Positions 2,229 through 6,730 of a stretch of 64,000 bases of DNA are shown in pieces; position 1 is the stretch's first letter, and each line of letters opens with the position of its first letter. This DNA comes from a virus. The stretch is from positions 6,817 to 70,816 of the IMG/VR virus record IMGVR_UViG_3300013099_000021, one strand, 5' to 3'. The notes below the pieces were generated by a model, which saw only the letters and a list, made by a program, of their open reading frames with translations, did not search any database and was not told the origin of the DNA. A program made the translations under genes and the position numbers.

Positions 2229-2867
2229 CTACAACTTCAAATTATCAGCCGTAGGCTCTATCTTAGCATTAGAGGGATTGTAGCTGTTTGGGTAAGGGTT
2301 AGGCTCATTAAGCCTCTTCAGATCCATTCCCAGCCACATAATAGCCTCCTGTACCTTTGTAATGGCAAGCGACCTCTCCCTGGAACCATGACACCCCTTT
2401 ATGTTTTGCAGTTGAGCGTCCAGGCCAACACGGAGGAGTTTGTCTGCCTTGACATCTTTCCGGTGAGCTTCTTCTTGATCAATAATCCTCTGATCCTCAA
2501 AATTGAAATGAAATGGCTCCTGGACCAGGGAATCGACAATGCTTGCAAACAAGAGATCCTTCTTCTGCTGAAATACAGGTAACTTGTCGAATGTAACGAT
2601 ACAAGGGTGTGTCTTAGCACCGGGATCTTTCACCTCTCCCCACTCCCAACCATCATCAAGTTTATCTTTCACCCAGTTATTGTGCTGCGCTTCATGCCCT
2701 GCTCTCGGATTTTCAAGCCTGAACTGAACACCTTTAATGGCTGAATCCTGTTGCCATTTAGGTGCCTCAAACCAATCTGATTGACTGTCATCACCATTAG
2801 CCTCGCACCATGCCTTGTTAGCCTGGTGGCATACAATGGCCACGTAAATAATCATACTTTCATTCAT
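2229..2867 (-). CDS. RyR-domain protein fused to Acb2/Tad1-like helical hairpin
   Basis: HNNW...GWEWGEVKD..KTHPCIV.FDKLP (RyR); C-terminal SRERSLAITKVQEAIMWL; start at MNES 2867. Confidence 0.65.
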   Translation of the reverse strand: MNESMIIYVAIVCHQANKAWCEANGDDSQSDWFEAPKWQQDSAIKGVQFRLENPRAGHEAQHNNWVKDKLDDGWEWGEVKDPGAKTHPCIVTFDKLPVFQQKKDLLFASIVDSLVQEPFHFNFEDQRIIDQEEAHRKDVKADKLLRVGLDAQLQNIKGCHGSRERSLAITKVQEAIMWLGMDLKRLNEPNPYPNSYNPSNAKIEPTADNLKL

Positions 2868-2888
2868 AATTTGATATTTAAGGTTTAT

Positions 2889-2925
2889 AAAAAAAGGGTA
2901 GTAAGCCATCTCAGCTAACTACCCC
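2889..2925 (-). terminator. rho-independent terminator
   Basis: GGGTAGTTAGC-TGAGATG-GCTTACTACCC-TTTTTTT on - strand. Confidence 0.75.
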
Positions 2926-2967: not shown

Positions 2968-4503
2968 TCAAATACTATTTAACAAGGTGTTAATCTCTGC
3001 CGTTGTTGCTTTGTAGCAAAAATCCTCCTTCACCCTGTACTCTTGAAACTGGGGGAACTTGGTTTTAAGCATGGTGTCAAAGACTCCGTTATCAACACCG
3101 GCCACGTTAGCCATCTCTTCGAATAAAGTCTTAACCTGATCAAAACCCCTCTTGCCATCCACCAGGTCAGGAACATCGATGTTGAACTTATTGGTGTCCA
3201 CTCTTTCCTCGATAGGAGGCAAAGGATCTAGTTCCGGCTCTGGTTCCTGATTGCCCACTGGCTCCACCTCGATCTCATCAGTGGTCCTGGACTCATACTC
3301 GGCCTGTTGAGGATCTTCCGGTATCTTCTCTCCTATTGGTGGCATCTTGGCCACTGTGGAAGGATCACTTAGATCTGGATTTGCTGTTGGATCAAACTTC
3401 TCAATCATTCCGACCACATTACCCTCATAGAAGGAAAGGATAATCAACCGGAGCTTCTTATTGGTATTCTTCCCTGGATCAATTTCCCTGGCCTTGGTCA
3501 TCAGCCCATCACACTCAATTATAGTATTGAGATCTGCTGTGTCCATCTCCTTCATCTCCTCCATAGAGTAAACCATTACGAACCCCGGTGTGCCGTTAAG
3601 CATGGTGCCCTTGCTCTCTCTGGCTGGTTGATCGTCCTGGGTAACTGGATATGACTCTCCCAGTGTAGAAGGATACTTCTTCGCCTGACTGTCATCGGGC
3701 ATAGCATCATGCTCTACTGGTGGTGGTGGCTCCAAATCCCCTGCTCTCTTGTCGATCTGGGAATTAGCCTTGCTGGTCAGATCCTCGCTCCTATTCTTGG
3801 AGAAATCCTTATCCGGGATAATAACCTCTGTGCCTTGATTGGTGGTGACTACAACAGTGGTGTCCTGTGGCAGATCCATCGCTTCCTCAGTGGTGTAACT
3901 ACCACTCAGCACATCAGGAAACAGATCCCTGGCAAGGAAGCCAAGCACCCTGTATGCAATCATCCTCTCCGGATACTTGTACCATGCAGATTTAAGGTAC
4001 TTCCAACCATCCTGCCCATTGATCATCTTCTGAGTAATCCACAAGCCTGCTCTCTTAGCCTGGTCTACACCAAAGGTCCTGGACATGGTTTCCTGTGTAT
4101 CGGATCTCTTGGCAGTAATGGTACACTCATAACTTTCGTCACTAAGCGAACCAGTGATAGTTTCTTTCCAAGTTCCCGGGGCGAGCTTACCTGATTTGAA
4201 GATAAGCGTCTTAGCTGCATCTCCCTTGATACTGAGCAGACCGTTCACTGGGATAATGTGCTGCAGAGCTACCAATGGCTTTAGGCCAAGGTCATCACCA
4301 TGCACACAAACCAGGATAACCGAAGCTACATTCCCTTTGGCGTAGTCCGGCTTCCCTTTGTCATTCTTCTCGTAGAAATGATCAGGGGCCAGCCTGCTGT
4401 CCAGTATCATCTGTGCAGCCACCTTCATCTCATCTAGATTTTTAATTGCAGTGTCCAGGAATGTTCCTGTTCCGACTACTGCCACTTTTCTTTCTTGTTC
4501 CAT
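2968..4503 (-). CDS. RecT-like ssDNA annealing protein with long acidic C-terminal extension
   Basis: LGLKPLVALQHIIPVNG...AKRAGLW...WYKYPERMIAYRVLGFLARDLFPDVLSG motifs; partner YqaJ exonuclease in the same operon. Confidence 0.7.
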   Translation of the reverse strand: MEQERKVAVVGTGTFLDTAIKNLDEMKVAAQMILDSRLAPDHFYEKNDKGKPDYAKGNVASVILVCVHGDDLGLKPLVALQHIIPVNGLLSIKGDAAKTLIFKSGKLAPGTWKETITGSLSDESYECTITAKRSDTQETMSRTFGVDQAKRAGLWITQKMINGQDGWKYLKSAWYKYPERMIAYRVLGFLARDLFPDVLSGSYTTEEAMDLPQDTTVVVTTNQGTEVIIPDKDFSKNRSEDLTSKANSQIDKRAGDLEPPPPVEHDAMPDDSQAKKYPSTLGESYPVTQDDQPARESKGTMLNGTPGFVMVYSMEEMKEMDTADLNTIIECDGLMTKAREIDPGKNTNKKLRLIILSFYEGNVVGMIEKFDPTANPDLSDPSTVAKMPPIGEKIPEDPQQAEYESRTTDEIEVEPVGNQEPEPELDPLPPIEERVDTNKFNIDVPDLVDGKRGFDQVKTLFEEMANVAGVDNGVFDTMLKTKFPQFQEYRVKEDFCYKATTAEINTLLNSI

Positions 4504-4522
4504 ATAATTTTGATTTTTAAGG

Positions 4523-5092
4523 TTATTTTACTTGTTTAAATTCGACTACCTCGAACACGCCAAACTCACCCTTATGTTCTGGCCTGTAACTTCCAATACC
4601 AAACATGGTCCCGGCAAACTCTAATATTGACTCAACGGTTTGTTTGGTGATCGTGTCATTCTTCACGTTAATAGTGAAGGAGAGGGATAAATCATTCCAC
4701 CTGGGTCTGATCGCAATGATTCGTGCCTTGACATTCCGGTTTACGGCACTACGCTTGTCAATAGTGTCGAAATCCCTGACAATAATCTCCTCCGGAGAGA
4801 CTGTGAATAGACCGGCAACGATGTTTGTCATGGACTTTCGACCATTGCCGACCTTTGCTTTCACCTGTGTCCCTCCATTTATTAGGGATTGCTTGATGTG
4901 TTCAGAAGGAACGAAACATTCCCCCTTACTGTTGCGATAACAGTGGAACTCTGCACGAACGAGATCCTCTTGGTTTACATCATCTCTCTCAATGATTTTA
5001 CCCCTGTTCTTTTCCCATTCTTCTAATTTCTGATCATCCATCCGATGTTGCATATACTTCTCGGTGTGGATCTTTACTCTAAATTGTTTCAT
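4523..5092 (-). CDS. stand-alone Cas7/RAMP-like protein (about 189 aa)
   Basis: N-terminal beta strand, YRNSKGECFVPSEHIKQSL (RAMP 'IPGSSLKG' equivalent), C-terminal Gly loop GIGSYRPEHKGEFGVFEV; ATG 5092 preceded by TCAAAGCT as in other genes here. Confidence 0.7.
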   Translation of the reverse strand: MKQFRVKIHTEKYMQHRMDDQKLEEWEKNRGKIIERDDVNQEDLVRAEFHCYRNSKGECFVPSEHIKQSLINGGTQVKAKVGNGRKSMTNIVAGLFTVSPEEIIVRDFDTIDKRSAVNRNVKARIIAIRPRWNDLSLSFTINVKNDTITKQTVESILEFAGTMFGIGSYRPEHKGEFGVFEVVEFKQVK

Positions 5093-5114
5093 AGCTTTGA
5101 ATTTTAAATTAAAC

Positions 5115-5474
5115 AAAAAATTACTGAACGAAACTAAACTCTACTTGACCTCACAAAACATCACATAACTAAACTTCAAAATACTGCACCTAACTCGACT
5201 TTACTTTACCTTGCGTTACTAAACATCACATCACACAACAGTACCAAACTTTAAAATACTATACATAACAGGACCCCACTTTACAACACAAAACCAAACA
5301 TCAAAATACTTGACTTCACAACACTTCACAGAACCCAACTTTACATAACATAACAACAAATTACTTTACAAAACTCAACTCAACGGCACATAACGTGACA
5401 CTACCTCACTATACTTTAAAATACTATACCGCACAAGACAATACCCTACCCCACATAACGTCACATGACCCTAC
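5115..5474 (-). ncRNA. 5-nt-periodic (GT-NNN)n guide-like array, six blocks separated by GTAWTTTNNN linkers
   Basis: AC in perfect 5-nt phase on + strand in 65 of 71 slots from 5120-5474; linkers at 5115, 5175, 5250, 5300, 5355, 5415; blocks of 10, 13, 8, 9, 10, 10 units. The repeat is directly seen; RNA function is inferred. Confidence 0.8.
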
Positions 5475-5475
5475 C

Positions 5476-6054
5476 TCAATAGTTTAATTGGTTGTGTTTC
5501 GATGTCCAGTTTCGGTCCCCTGGTGGATTCCAGGGTATTCCCAAAAAGTCAAAGAACGCATATTCAGTATCAAAGACCGGGGGCTTTGTTTCCTTCCCCT
5601 TAAACTCCTTTTTCAGGGTCCATTTAGATGCTTTTTTGTCACATTCAGCCTTACGCCTCAATCCCCACTCGGTACCGCACCATCCTAACCGGTTCCATGT
5701 AATTGCCAGTTTGATATGGCTGAAAGCAGAAGATCCTGTTCTGATTGCCAAAATTCGACCATAATCATGGCGCTGCGCTATATAAAGTTCCACCTGGATC
5801 TTGTCTTTAGGGTACTTAAACCGCTTTAGACGCTTACCATTGACAACCATCCCTGGATACTTTTCATGGAAGAGATTGTCCAGGCTGTTAAAAGCGCTCT
5901 CAGTGCAAACTATCTCAATATCGCCAACCTCCTTACATCCCCTGCGAACACTACCAGCTATCTCCCTGACATCTGTGTATGGTTCGATGAGGATAAGGAA
6001 CCGTCTGGCTACATTGAGTGCCTTTTCTAATTTGATCTTTTCTCCGCTACTCAT
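5476..6054 (-). CDS. minimal PolX-family nucleotidyltransferase
   Basis: IAGSVRRGCKEVGDIEIV, VELYI, RTGS motifs, C-terminal TEYAFFDFLGIPWNPP; start at MSSGEK 6054. Confidence 0.8.
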   Translation of the reverse strand: MSSGEKIKLEKALNVARRFLILIEPYTDVREIAGSVRRGCKEVGDIEIVCTESAFNSLDNLFHEKYPGMVVNGKRLKRFKYPKDKIQVELYIAQRHDYGRILAIRTGSSAFSHIKLAITWNRLGWCGTEWGLRRKAECDKKASKWTLKKEFKGKETKPPVFDTEYAFFDFLGIPWNPPGDRNWTSKHNQLNY

Positions 6055-6730
6055 CTCTGAGCTTTTTCGCAAAGTACGTCTGTCCCTTTCCTGTGATCTT
6101 TGTTGTCCTGCTAGTGAAAGTTTGATCTGCTGCTCCAATGGTTCTCTCAATCACTTCAAATAAACCTTGCTGAACATAGTTCTGATACGGTTCATTGCCT
6201 CTATTAAGGTACCCATTGTCCCGGAACCACTTAAATAACCTGTTCTGGCCTATCTCAAAACCGTCATCGCTCAAAATCTTTGCGAAGTGTCTTGTTAGAA
6301 TAGAGTTATCACTTCCGGAAACAGCATCAGCAAAAACAACCTTTGATCTGTCATTTTCGATTTTCGCTTCAAGGGCAAGTCGCTTTTGATACTCCTCCTG
6401 CCAGTTCTGAACCAGTTTAAGAACTGTCTCTGGATTGGTGAAGTCAATAGCTTTCTGTTCCAGCTCCTCCCACCTACGGTTAATCTTTATCCTTAACTCA
6501 ACACTATACCCAGTCATCAAGTCAAATGTCTGTATCCGGCTTAGAAGAAATTGAGGCTGCTCTTTGTTCTGCTCGTTCCGATAAGAGGACCGCTCAAGTT
6601 TGGGCAGTCCTAATTTCTCGTAGTTAACATTCAGAGTTTCAATATCACGAAGAACGTGCTTGTGTTGCTTCCCTGTCAACTCCGCAATCTCACGGCTTGA
6701 CATCGACTGCTTATTTGCTAATTCTTCCAT
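6047..6730 (-). CDS. Rha-family/ANT antirepressor
   Basis: MSSREIAELTGKQHKHVLRDI (Rha N-term); IGQNRLFKWFRDNGYL...TKITGKGQTYF (ANT C-term). Confidence 0.85.
   Translation of the reverse strand: MEELANKQSMSSREIAELTGKQHKHVLRDIETLNVNYEKLGLPKLERSSYRNEQNKEQPQFLLSRIQTFDLMTGYSVELRIKINRRWEELEQKAIDFTNPETVLKLVQNWQEEYQKRLALEAKIENDRSKVVFADAVSGSDNSILTRHFAKILSDDGFEIGQNRLFKWFRDNGYLNRGNEPYQNYVQQGLFEVIERTIGAADQTFTSRTTKITGKGQTYFAKKLRDE

What the first reader, a model, noticed from the sequence alone, without database searches (positions are those of the whole stretch)
5425..5772. First array block decodes to a synonymously recoded copy of the neighbouring PolX gene
Seen: dropping each GT from block 5474-5425 gives AGG CAT GAC TAT GGG AGG ATT CTT GCG ATA = RHDYGRILAI. 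The PolX-like gene at 5772-5743 encodes the identical peptide as CGC CAT GAT TAT GGT CGA ATT TTG GCA ATC. That is 10/10 amino acids but 20/30 nt, and all 10 differences are synonymous. At codon positions 1-2 the match is 17/20, and the three mismatches fall only where a synonymous first-base change is possible (two Arg AGR/CGN, one Leu CTN/TTR). Inference: the guide targets the polX allele of a related phage in codon register, and this phage's own copy is immune by recoding. This strongly supports the array carrying target information.
Basis: partly seen in the sequence, partly recalled or inferred. Interest (0 to 1): 0.95.

Follow-up and report, generated by a model that had tools for sequence, protein, structure and literature searches.

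The report
Phage VIPR guide aimed at polX
This is the first guide RNA of a phage VIPR system (a CRISPR-related DNA silencer described in 2026); it spells a conserved piece of the neighbouring polymerase gene as related phages write it, while the phage's own copy differs at three silent positions.

Summary
Dropping GT from the ten minus-strand pentamers at 5474-5425 gives triplets that translate to RHDYGRILAI, the PolX-like residues encoded at 5772-5743. The match is 20/30 nt and 17/20 at codon positions 1-2.

It is not a new kind of system. It is guide 1 of a six-guide VIPR vrRNA array (bioRxiv 10.64898/2026.04.26.720920) of the published 'YNNNG' repeat variant. It sits beside a Cas7-like vipr gene (4523-5092). 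The published code reads two bases and skips the wobble base, which explains the codon register.

Array plus vipr form a cassette between polX and recT. Relatives without it have polX next to recT.

Among 61 polX alleles from relatives, none matches 20/20. Thirteen match better than self (five at 19/20, eight at 18/20). Seven match perfectly over guide units 2-10, and self scores 16/18 there. 'Aimed at rivals' is therefore supported. 'Immune by recoding' is plausible but unproven: Arg/Leu codon-family switches are common in this gene, and no mismatch tolerance is known.

The third variable base looks codon-like (stop triplets depleted, P=0.005). The published code does not explain this.

This scan has noted the 'guide beside own mismatched allele' layout at least eight times on other DNA.

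The parts
5425..5474 (-). Guide B1: ten GTNNN units (G2-Y3-N4-N5-N1 in VIPR numbering). N4N5 spell codon positions 1-2 of the polX segment.
5415..5424 (-). In-phase 10-nt U/A-rich linker (GTAWT + TTRAW type) that closes block 1. The same kind of linker follows each of the six blocks.
5115..5474 (-). Whole vrRNA array. Six guides of 10, 10, 9, 8, 13 and 10 units: B1 5474-5425, B2 5414-5365, B3 5354-5310, B4 5299-5260, B5 5249-5185, B6 5174-5125. Each is followed by a 10-nt linker.
4523..5092 (-). vipr gene: a 189-aa single-RRM RAMP (Cas7-like) protein, phrog_4652.
5476..6054 (-). PolX-like (Pol beta-type) gene of 192 aa. Its stop codon lies 1 nt before the array.
5743..5772 (-). Self near-target: codons 95-104 (RHDYGRILAI). 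NN match to B1 is 17/20, with mismatches in units 1, 6 and 8.
2968..4503 (-). RecT-like gene, the downstream flank of the cassette. In cassette-less relatives it directly follows polX.
5481..5508 (-). Weak sigma-70-like promoter match (9/12) just upstream of the array. A consensus hit only.

Best explanation
Block 1 is the first guide of a VIPR (Viral Interference Programmable Repeat) vrRNA array of the YNNNG repeat variant. The array is probably transcribed on the minus strand with polX and vipr, then cut at the 10-nt linkers. Each guide would be coated by one Vipr (Cas7-like) protomer per pentamer. By homology with the solved SUSP1 complex, G and T of each unit, and probably the base before them, are held by the protein. 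The two bases after GT pair with DNA while every third target base is skipped. B1 has the same sense as polX mRNA, so it can only pair with the template DNA strand, not with the mRNA. Its read-out is the family-consensus spelling of the most conserved polX segment (..DYGRILAI..). It would therefore bind and silence the polX/recombination operon of related, mostly cassette-less phages during co-infection. The carrier's own allele differs from the guide at the only three positions where a silent change can alter a read base (Arg, Arg, Leu). Two of these are internal and 3'-proximal (units 6 and 8), which plausibly spares it. Shown: the anatomy, the homology, the cassette insertion and the match statistics. 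Inferred: transcription, processing, binding, silencing and self-sparing.
For: System identity:
- Vipr AF2 model has pLDDT 84.4. All Foldseek hits shown are CRISPR-Cas effector complexes (type VII, type III Csm/Cmr, Cas7-11), best E 2.4e-6, TM about 0.5; that the matched chains are the Cas7-family subunits (Cas7, Csm3, Cmr4) is my recollection, since the listing gives complex titles only.
- BLASTP gives 25% identity over about 190 aa, E 4e-11 pairwise, to a Felixounavirus (phage tootiki) protein. tblastn against the phage database gave E 1e-3.
- That tootiki protein is flanked by canonical GGTNN arrays.
- Same-strand G[T/C]NNN arrays abut the vipr homologue in 13 of 15 viral loci.
- The published code and the alternative YNNNG repeats are described.

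Target:
- B1 scores 18/18 over units 2-10 in 7 of 61 alleles and 16/16 over units 3-10 in 29 of 61.
- 13 of 61 alleles score above self.
- The guide-type pair AG+CT is the majority state (30 of 61), against the self-type CG+TT (9 of 61).
- A hypothetical self-copy guide would reach >=18/20 in only 3 of 57 full-length alleles, against 11 of 57 for B1.
- The footprint lies on the most NN-conserved part of polX (rank 5 of the 9-codon windows; invariant D97-S109).

Cassette:
- polX abuts recT in L022, L030 and L024.
- The window, L019 and L026 carry array+vipr there.
- vipr is more conserved than its flanks: 96% and 89% aa, against polX 85% and 66% and recT 57% and 48%. Third-position identity is 0.70, against 0.53 and 0.31.

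Mismatch placement:
- The published filament assembles 3' to 5' and its 5' repeats are flexible.
- Self mismatches sit at units 6 and 8. The mismatches of the best relatives sit at units 1-2.
Against: - No 20/20 polX target was found in any collection.
- The discrimination margin is small (17 against 18-19 of 20), and 20 of 61 alleles tie with self.
- Self at 85% NN passes the authors' >=80% target cut-off. They reported no such self hits in their sets.
- No mismatch-tolerance data were found in the parts of the three preprints that I read.
- L019 and L026 carry the cassette at the same site without any polX guide, so the arrangement is not a conserved feature of the cassette.
- L019 has the self-type codons without the guide.
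- Arg/Leu family switches are frequent elsewhere in polX, so selection for recoding is not demonstrated.
- B2-B6 have no target above shuffled controls in anything I could search.
- The polX alleles were ascertained with peptide patterns that include DYGRILAI. This inflates the apparent conservation of the site.
Confidence: 0.6

Rival explanations
1. Autoregulation. B1 is meant to bind the phage's own polX through a deliberately imperfect match. That would place a tunable roadblock about 270 nt upstream of the array and vipr in the same transcription unit, giving negative feedback on the system.
For: The self match is 17/20 = 85% NN, above the >=80% level used in print to call targets. Target, array and vipr are co-directional and adjacent. 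Published VIPR silences from either strand within a transcription unit.
Against: 13 of 61 foreign alleles match better than self. The self mismatches fall exactly where silent escape is possible. Neither of the 2 other cassettes at this site (L019, L026) has a polX guide.
Confidence: 0.12
2. Whole-codon code or templated origin. In this YNNNG clade the third variable base (the G1 position) also carries target information. Either it pairs with the 'skipped' base, or guides are born as GT-interleaved copies of a coding sequence. On this reading the true target is an allele spelled exactly like the decoded 30-mer, and self (20/30) is strongly protected by silent recoding.
For: - All ten B1 triplets are synonymous with the target peptide (P about 0.018, post hoc).
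- A guide in L111, found by NN-only scanning, matches a gene about 500 nt from its own array at 18/20, and all 8 matched units are synonymous (six constrained codons, about 0.02 by my arithmetic).
- Sense stop triplets are depleted among N4N5N1 triplets of the three sister arrays: 6 observed against 12.4 +/- 2.3 with N1 shuffled (P = 0.005). For L019+L026 alone the figures are 3 against 7.7 (P = 0.008). The antisense control shows no depletion (14 against 12.1).
- The Asp that reads G1 in the solved complex (D177) aligns to an invariant Ser here.
- A guide in L026 matches an intergenic site of this genome 16/16 at NN and 6/8 at N1.
Against: - N1 matches the wobble base of real polX alleles only 2-7 times in 10, about what codon-compatible chance gives.
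- Over all 17 arrays the stop depletion is not significant (35 against 40.6, P = 0.11).
- The signal rests largely on an excess of TAT, and homologous guides are not independent.
- His16, the other G1 contact, is conserved, so the base is probably still held by the protein.
- No allele with the exact 30-mer was found.
Confidence: 0.15
3. Homing or gene-drive-like spread. Vipr-B1 bound to polX of a cassette-less co-infecting relative, about 270 bp from the empty site, stalls replication or transcription. This stimulates recombination (the RecT, YqaJ and RusA genes are nearby) that copies the cassette and the linked resistant allele into the rival.
For: The cassette occupies the same polX-recT junction in three diverged backgrounds, and vipr is less diverged than its flanks, including at third positions. 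The target lies in the flank next to the insertion site. The recombination module is shown.
Against: The inserted segment contains only the array and vipr, with no nuclease. Neither of the 2 sister cassettes has a flank-targeting guide. Ordinary phage mosaicism explains the identity pattern equally well.
Confidence: 0.08
4. Relic guide. B1 is a decaying or hitch-hiking guide with no present function, and its likeness to polX reflects past targeting only.
For: No perfect target is known. Guides turn over fast between sister arrays: array nt identity is 79% and 70%, with different guide sets.
Against: All nine core units still equal the family consensus (18/18 in 7 alleles), and the GT scaffold is intact in 10 of 10 units. 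Contigs laid from four runs (three studies) match at about 100% with no listed difference in the array or at the target site, though only X3 covers the whole array and X6 has no cover at the target site.
Confidence: 0.05

Closest known systems
VIPR systems (Vipr RAMP + vrRNA); experimental exemplars are type II of Escherichia phage SUSP1 and a Pseudomonas fulva prophage (bioRxiv 10.64898/2026.04.26.720920 and 10.64898/2026.04.26.720927)
   Same: - A small Cas7-like protein next to same-strand pentamer-repeat arrays.
- Guides of 8-13 units (published 9-16).
- Two read bases per unit and a one-base skip aligned to the wobble position.
- Phage-borne.
- The target is a conserved gene of related mobile elements.
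- The G2 and Y3 contact residues (R138, aromatic 178, R179) align to R129, Y169 and R170.
   Different: - The repeat is N-G-T-N-N (the paper's 'YNNNG' alternative), with the first G not conserved and D177 replaced by Ser.
- There is no structured 3' tail or pseudoknot, only 10-nt in-phase linkers.
- The inserted segment has no vap gene.
- A self near-match of 85% NN lies in the adjacent gene, whereas the authors found no self hit >=80%.
- The third variable base looks codon-like.
Solo and vrRNA-targeting vrRNAs of SUSP1-family phages (bioRxiv 10.64898/2026.10.15.759431)
   Same: Guides aimed at close relatives, with self-match scores lower than non-self scores, which the authors read as avoiding autoimmunity. 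Targets are wobble-aligned so that silent escape is hard.
   Different: There the targets are vipr genes, vrRNAs and satellites, not the gene flanking the cassette. Escape through six-fold-degenerate Arg/Leu codons is not discussed in the parts I read.
Free-standing phage homing endonucleases with a polymorphism-protected flanking target (known from T4-type phages; recalled, not from a call)
   Same: A mobile cassette sits beside the gene that it recognises in cassette-less relatives, and the carrier's allele is protected by sequence differences at the site.
   Different: The cassette has no nuclease. Recognition is by RNA guide. Cleavage and gene conversion are not indicated.
Class 1 CRISPR-Cas Cas7 backbones (type I, III and VII)
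   Same: The RAMP fold and periodic base flipping along a guide.
   Different: There is no repeat-spacer array and no cas1 or cas2. The period is 5 nt with 2-3 flipped bases rather than 6 nt with 1. The target read-out is gapped.

Membership tests
VIPR system | Vipr protein: a small (about 20 kDa) single-RRM RAMP with G-loop and thumb | tested here: met
   189 aa. AF2 pLDDT 84.4. All Foldseek hits shown are CRISPR-Cas effector complexes (type VII, type III Csm/Cmr, Cas7-11), best E 2.4e-6; that the matched chains are the Cas7-family subunits is recalled, as the listing gives complex titles only. BLASTP E 4e-11 to the tootiki protein that is flanked by GGTNN arrays, with the G-loops aligned.
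VIPR system | vrRNA: tandem pentanucleotide repeats with a constant GGY-type scaffold and variable NN | tested here: met
   67 of 73 units are G[T/C]NNN in one register. G2 and Y3 are constant and G1 is variable, which is the published 'YNNNG' alternative.
VIPR system | Array adjacent to vipr and on the same strand | tested here: met
   The array ends about 30 nt before the vipr start codon. The same holds in 13 of 15 homologue loci.
VIPR system | One-base-skip targeting, with skips on the wobble positions of coding targets | tested here: met
   B1 against polX is in frame. It scores 18/18 over units 2-10 in 7 of 61 alleles, above all 280 shuffled windows.
VIPR system | Conserved structured 3' tail (a pseudoknot in type II) | tested here: not met
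   Only 10-nt A/U-rich in-phase linkers separate the guides. There is no Rfam hit. The paper allows other architectures, such as staggered arrays. I could not see its figures S17-S18.
VIPR system | Accessory vap gene | tested here: not met
   The segment absent from cassette-less relatives holds only the array and vipr. The next gene is the resident recT-like gene.
VIPR system | vrRNA expressed and bound by Vipr; DNA binding and silencing | not testable with these tools
   No RNA run holds the locus.
VIPR system | No self-target at >=80% NN (reported by the authors as a control, not a definition) | tested here: not met
   The self match is 17/20 = 85% in the adjacent gene, against the statement quoted.
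Homing endonuclease cassette | A site-specific nuclease encoded in the cassette | tested here: not met
   No Pfam family matched vipr at E<=0.01 and its only PHROG hit is a family of unknown function (phrog_4652); no other ORF lies in the insert.
CRISPR-Cas | Repeat-spacer array with an adaptation module | tested here: not met
   There are no direct repeats of CRISPR type and no cas1 or cas2 among the neighbours scanned.

The most novel reading that the evidence does not exclude
In this YNNNG branch of VIPR the third variable base of each pentamer is not a free scaffold position. It carries the wobble base of the target codon, so guides are whole-codon, GT-interleaved images of rival coding sequences. 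This would mean one of two things. Either the code has three read bases and no skip, in which case silent recoding of the carrier's own linked allele (20/30 here) gives robust self-immunity. Or guides are made by an undescribed templated process that copies target genes into pentamer format.
Probability: 0.3. Interest if true: 0.75.

Novelty: new member of a known kind. Interest (0 to 1): 0.45.

Why it matters
The system itself (VIPR) was published in 2026, so the codon-register 'decoding' is not a discovery. Three points go beyond the preprint parts I read.

1. A guide is physically linked to the carrier's own near-target allele, like a weapon kept beside its antidote. This contrasts with the authors' report of no self hit at >=80% NN. 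This scan has now noted the layout repeatedly on other DNA.
2. The own allele differs exactly at the six-fold-degenerate Arg and Leu codons. That is the one loophole in the published argument that wobble-skipping defeats silent escape.
3. The third variable base of YNNNG repeats appears codon-like. If real, this bears on how the variant code is read or on how guides arise, and the origin of guides is an open question for VIPR.

All three can be tested directly with a two-plasmid reporter.

Tried and rejected
- **Chance.** Rejected by shuffled-guide controls.
- **Antisense RNA against polX mRNA.** Rejected because the guide has the same sense as the mRNA.
- **Quintuplet decoding, or a duplicated polX fragment.** Rejected once the VIPR papers explained the 5:3 geometry.
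- **Targets for B2-B6.** Nothing rose above shuffled controls in the own genome, in four whole relatives or in about 0.75 Mb of loci. The exact NNx patterns of B2 and B6 had 0 hits in viral contigs.
- **Full B1 pattern.** It had 0 hits in viral contigs. It had 1 hit in genome contigs, in a Desulfovibrio MAG, in a stretch that I recognise from memory as hisH-like and not polX. About one chance hit is expected for 20 fixed bases in 596 Gb.
- **L026-guide pattern.** It hit two viral contigs with the same sequence inside a 28-aa ORF, which is chance level for 18 fixed bases. The L111-guide pattern had 0 hits.
- **Expression.** No RNA holder was listed.
- **Laid contigs.** They show the same phage at about 100% identity. 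No variant allele and no cassette-less joint was seen.
- **Promoter and terminator scan.** It gave only a weak 9/12 promoter-like site. Rfam gave nothing.
- **Supplements.** The supplements of the three preprints were not available. Figures S10, S12, S17 and S18 and the data files could bear on mismatch tolerance, YNNNG arrays and self-matches.

Full report
**What is there**

On the minus strand, one nucleotide after the stop codon of a 192-aa PolX-like gene (5476-6054), the sequence enters a strict 5-nt register of GTNNN units. This register runs to about 5115, some 20 nt before the ATG of the next gene. My caller scored 67 of 73 units as G[T/C]NNN. Units lacking GT come in pairs of the type GTAWT + TTRAW. 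These pairs divide the tract into six blocks of 10, 10, 9, 8, 13 and 10 units.

Block 1 (5474-5425) translates, once GT is dropped, to RHDYGRILAI. The window encodes that peptide only at 5772-5743, inside the PolX-like gene. The next best six-frame match is 5/10. The three position-1/2 mismatches are AGR/CGN at units 1 and 6 and CTN/TTR at unit 8. These are all the codons in this peptide that allow a silent first-base change.

**What it is**

Notes of this scan pointed me to VIPR, which I then read. The vrRNAs are tandem pentamers G1-G2-Y3-N4-N5. A Cas7-like Vipr protomer holds GGY. N4 and N5 pair with DNA, and every third target base is skipped. Natural targets are mostly coding, with the skip on the wobble position (10.64898/2026.04.26.720920; Results, Discussion and methods sections 20 and 27 read). 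The structural paper gives the contacts (G1: H17 and D177; G2: R138 and W178; Y3: R179 and others). It also shows 3'-to-5' assembly and flexible 5' repeats (10.64898/2026.04.26.720927; Results read).

The gene after the array (4523-5092, 189 aa, phrog_4652, no Pfam) folds with pLDDT 84.4. All Foldseek hits shown are CRISPR-Cas effector complexes of types VII and III and Cas7-11 (best E 2.4e-6); that the matched chains are the Cas7-family subunits is my recollection, because the listing gives complex titles only. It aligns at 25% identity over about 190 residues (pairwise E 4e-11, database E 1e-3) to a protein of Escherichia phage tootiki that is flanked by textbook GGTNN arrays.

In that alignment tootiki residues H17, R138, D177, W178 and R179 carry exactly the published numbers. 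They pair with H16, R129, S168, Y169 and R170 here. S168 is invariant in 35 clade members. Loss of the Asp that reads G1 fits a repeat in which G1 has become N. That repeat is the paper's 'YNNNG' alternative. That tootiki numbering equals SUSP1 numbering is my inference.

Same-strand G[T/C]NNN arrays abut the vipr homologue in 13 of 15 viral loci. The codon register is the published rule, not a new code.

**Cassette**

In the relatives L022, L030 and L024, the recT-like gene starts 8 to 60 nt after polX. In the window, L019 and L026, array plus vipr (about 970 nt here) sit between them. Vipr is 96% and 89% identical in L019 and L026. Over the same pairs polX is 85% and 66% identical and recT 57% and 48%. 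For L019, third-codon-position identity is 0.70 for vipr against 0.53 for polX and 0.31 for recT. The cassette has therefore moved among diverged phages, or recombined with its flanks, at a fixed site. It contains no vap gene and no nuclease.

**Does B1 aim at relatives rather than self?**

I collected 61 distinct polX alleles with DNA. No allele scores 20/20. Five score 19, eight score 18, twenty score 17 (as self does), and 28 score lower. Over units 2-10, 7 alleles are perfect (18/18), where self scores 16/18. Over units 3-10, 29 alleles are perfect (16/16), where self scores 14/16.

The guide carries the majority spelling at the two switchable codons: AG+CT in 30 of 61 alleles. The self spelling CG+TT occurs in 9 of 61. 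A guide copied from self would reach >=18/20 in 3 of 57 full-length alleles, whereas B1 does so in 11 of 57. L022 and L044, both 18/18 in the core, are cassette-less.

The footprint sits on the longest invariant block of the protein (D97-S109) and on the most NN-conserved stretch. There is an ascertainment caveat: the loci were fished with DYGRILAI-type patterns.

Self mismatches are internal (units 6 and 8, the fifth and third from the 3' end, where the published filament nucleates). The mismatches of the best relatives lie in the flexible 5' units 1-2. This supports 'aimed at rivals'.

**What is not shown**

- The margin is small, and I found no mismatch-tolerance data in the text I could read.
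- Self at 85% NN passes the authors' >=80% cut-off. They report no self hit at that level for 96, 63 and 39 guides.
- Arg and Leu family switches are common at other conserved polX columns among ten close alleles.
- L019 shares the self-type codons yet has no polX guide.
- So 'recoded under selection' cannot be told apart from 'a guide that happens to fit the majority allele'.
- Autoregulation of the polX-array-vipr transcript by an imperfect self match remains possible. However, neither of the 2 sister cassettes has such a guide.

**The third base**

By homology N1 is held by the protein and should be uninformative. Against real alleles it matches the wobble base only 2-7 times in 10. Several results nevertheless point the other way.

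- All ten B1 triplets are synonymous (P about 0.018, post hoc).
- An L111 guide found by NN-only scanning matches an in-frame gene about 500 nt from its own array at 18/20, and all 8 matched units are synonymous.
- Sense stop triplets are depleted among N4N5N1 triplets of the three sister arrays. After removing duplicate guides there are 6 against 12.4 +/- 2.3 with N1 shuffled (P = 0.005). For L019+L026 alone there are 3 against 7.7 (P = 0.008). Antisense-stop triplets are not depleted (14 against 12.1).

Over all 17 arrays the effect is not significant. It also leans on an excess of TAT, and homologous guides are not independent. I leave this as the most novel open reading.

**Other evidence**

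Contigs laid from four further runs (three studies) match the phage at about 100% identity, with no listed difference in the array or at the target site. Only X3 covers the whole array. Three of the four runs cover the target site at least in part, and X6 has no cover there.

**Prior work and earlier notes**

The October preprint reports guides whose self-match is lower than their non-self match. It also argues that wobble alignment blocks silent escape (10.64898/2026.10.15.759431; sections 8 and 17 and passages read). I did not find the flank-linked layout or the Arg/Leu loophole in what I read. My searches were made, and the supplements were closed.

Notes of this scan describe the 'guide beside own mismatched allele' layout at least eight times on other DNA. 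These are AI notes that I did not check.

**Verdict**

The system is a known one (VIPR) in a new member with a tail-less YNNNG array.

Noticed in passing
L111:3560-3620 and L111:4053-4082: In a distant vipr locus, a ten-unit guide just after vipr matches an in-frame gene about 500 nt downstream at 18/20 NN. The two mismatches are non-synonymous (E/N, D/H), and all eight matched units are synonymous. This is a second 'guide beside own near-target' case in this Vipr family.
   Followed up: partly
G000:C1:3172-3198 (own genome, about 3.6 kb before the window start): A guide of the sister array in L026 matches this intergenic site 16/16 over its first eight units and 6/8 at the third base. The site lies about 135-160 nt upstream of an 83-aa gene. 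The window's own homologous guide B2 scores 12/22 there. On NN alone the hit is of borderline significance.
   Followed up: partly
window 4523-5092 versus L019 and L026: vipr is far more conserved than both flanking genes, also at third codon positions. This suggests recent lateral movement of the array+vipr cassette among diverged phages at one fixed junction.
   Followed up: partly
window 4523-5092, residue S168: The Asp that reads the first G of GGY in the solved Vipr complex aligns to an invariant Ser in this clade, while the G2 and Y3 contacts are kept. This gives a structural rationale for the relaxed N-G-Y repeat.
   Followed up: partly
L113 (G004:C1:6070-12642): The relative G004 lacks the polX-side cassette but carries its own vipr (53% identical) elsewhere. 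That copy has four arrays with conserved A/U-rich 3' ends. Rival phages of this family are therefore each armed with different VIPR loci.
   Followed up: no
window 2229-2909 (-): A 226-aa protein with a RyR domain (E 4.9e-9) and a weak Acb2/Tad1 hairpin match (E 8e-6, just below the cut-off).
   Followed up: no
window 5115-5474: All three stop-like triplets of this array (TGA, TGA, TAG) lie within the last four units of their guides (B2, B5). The 3' ends of guides may be less codon-like than their 5' parts.
   Followed up: no
window 3500-6500: Contigs from sediment, hydrothermal-vent and marine metagenome runs match this stretch at about 100% identity. The only listed differences are five single bases, and none lies in the array or at the target site.
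   Followed up: partly
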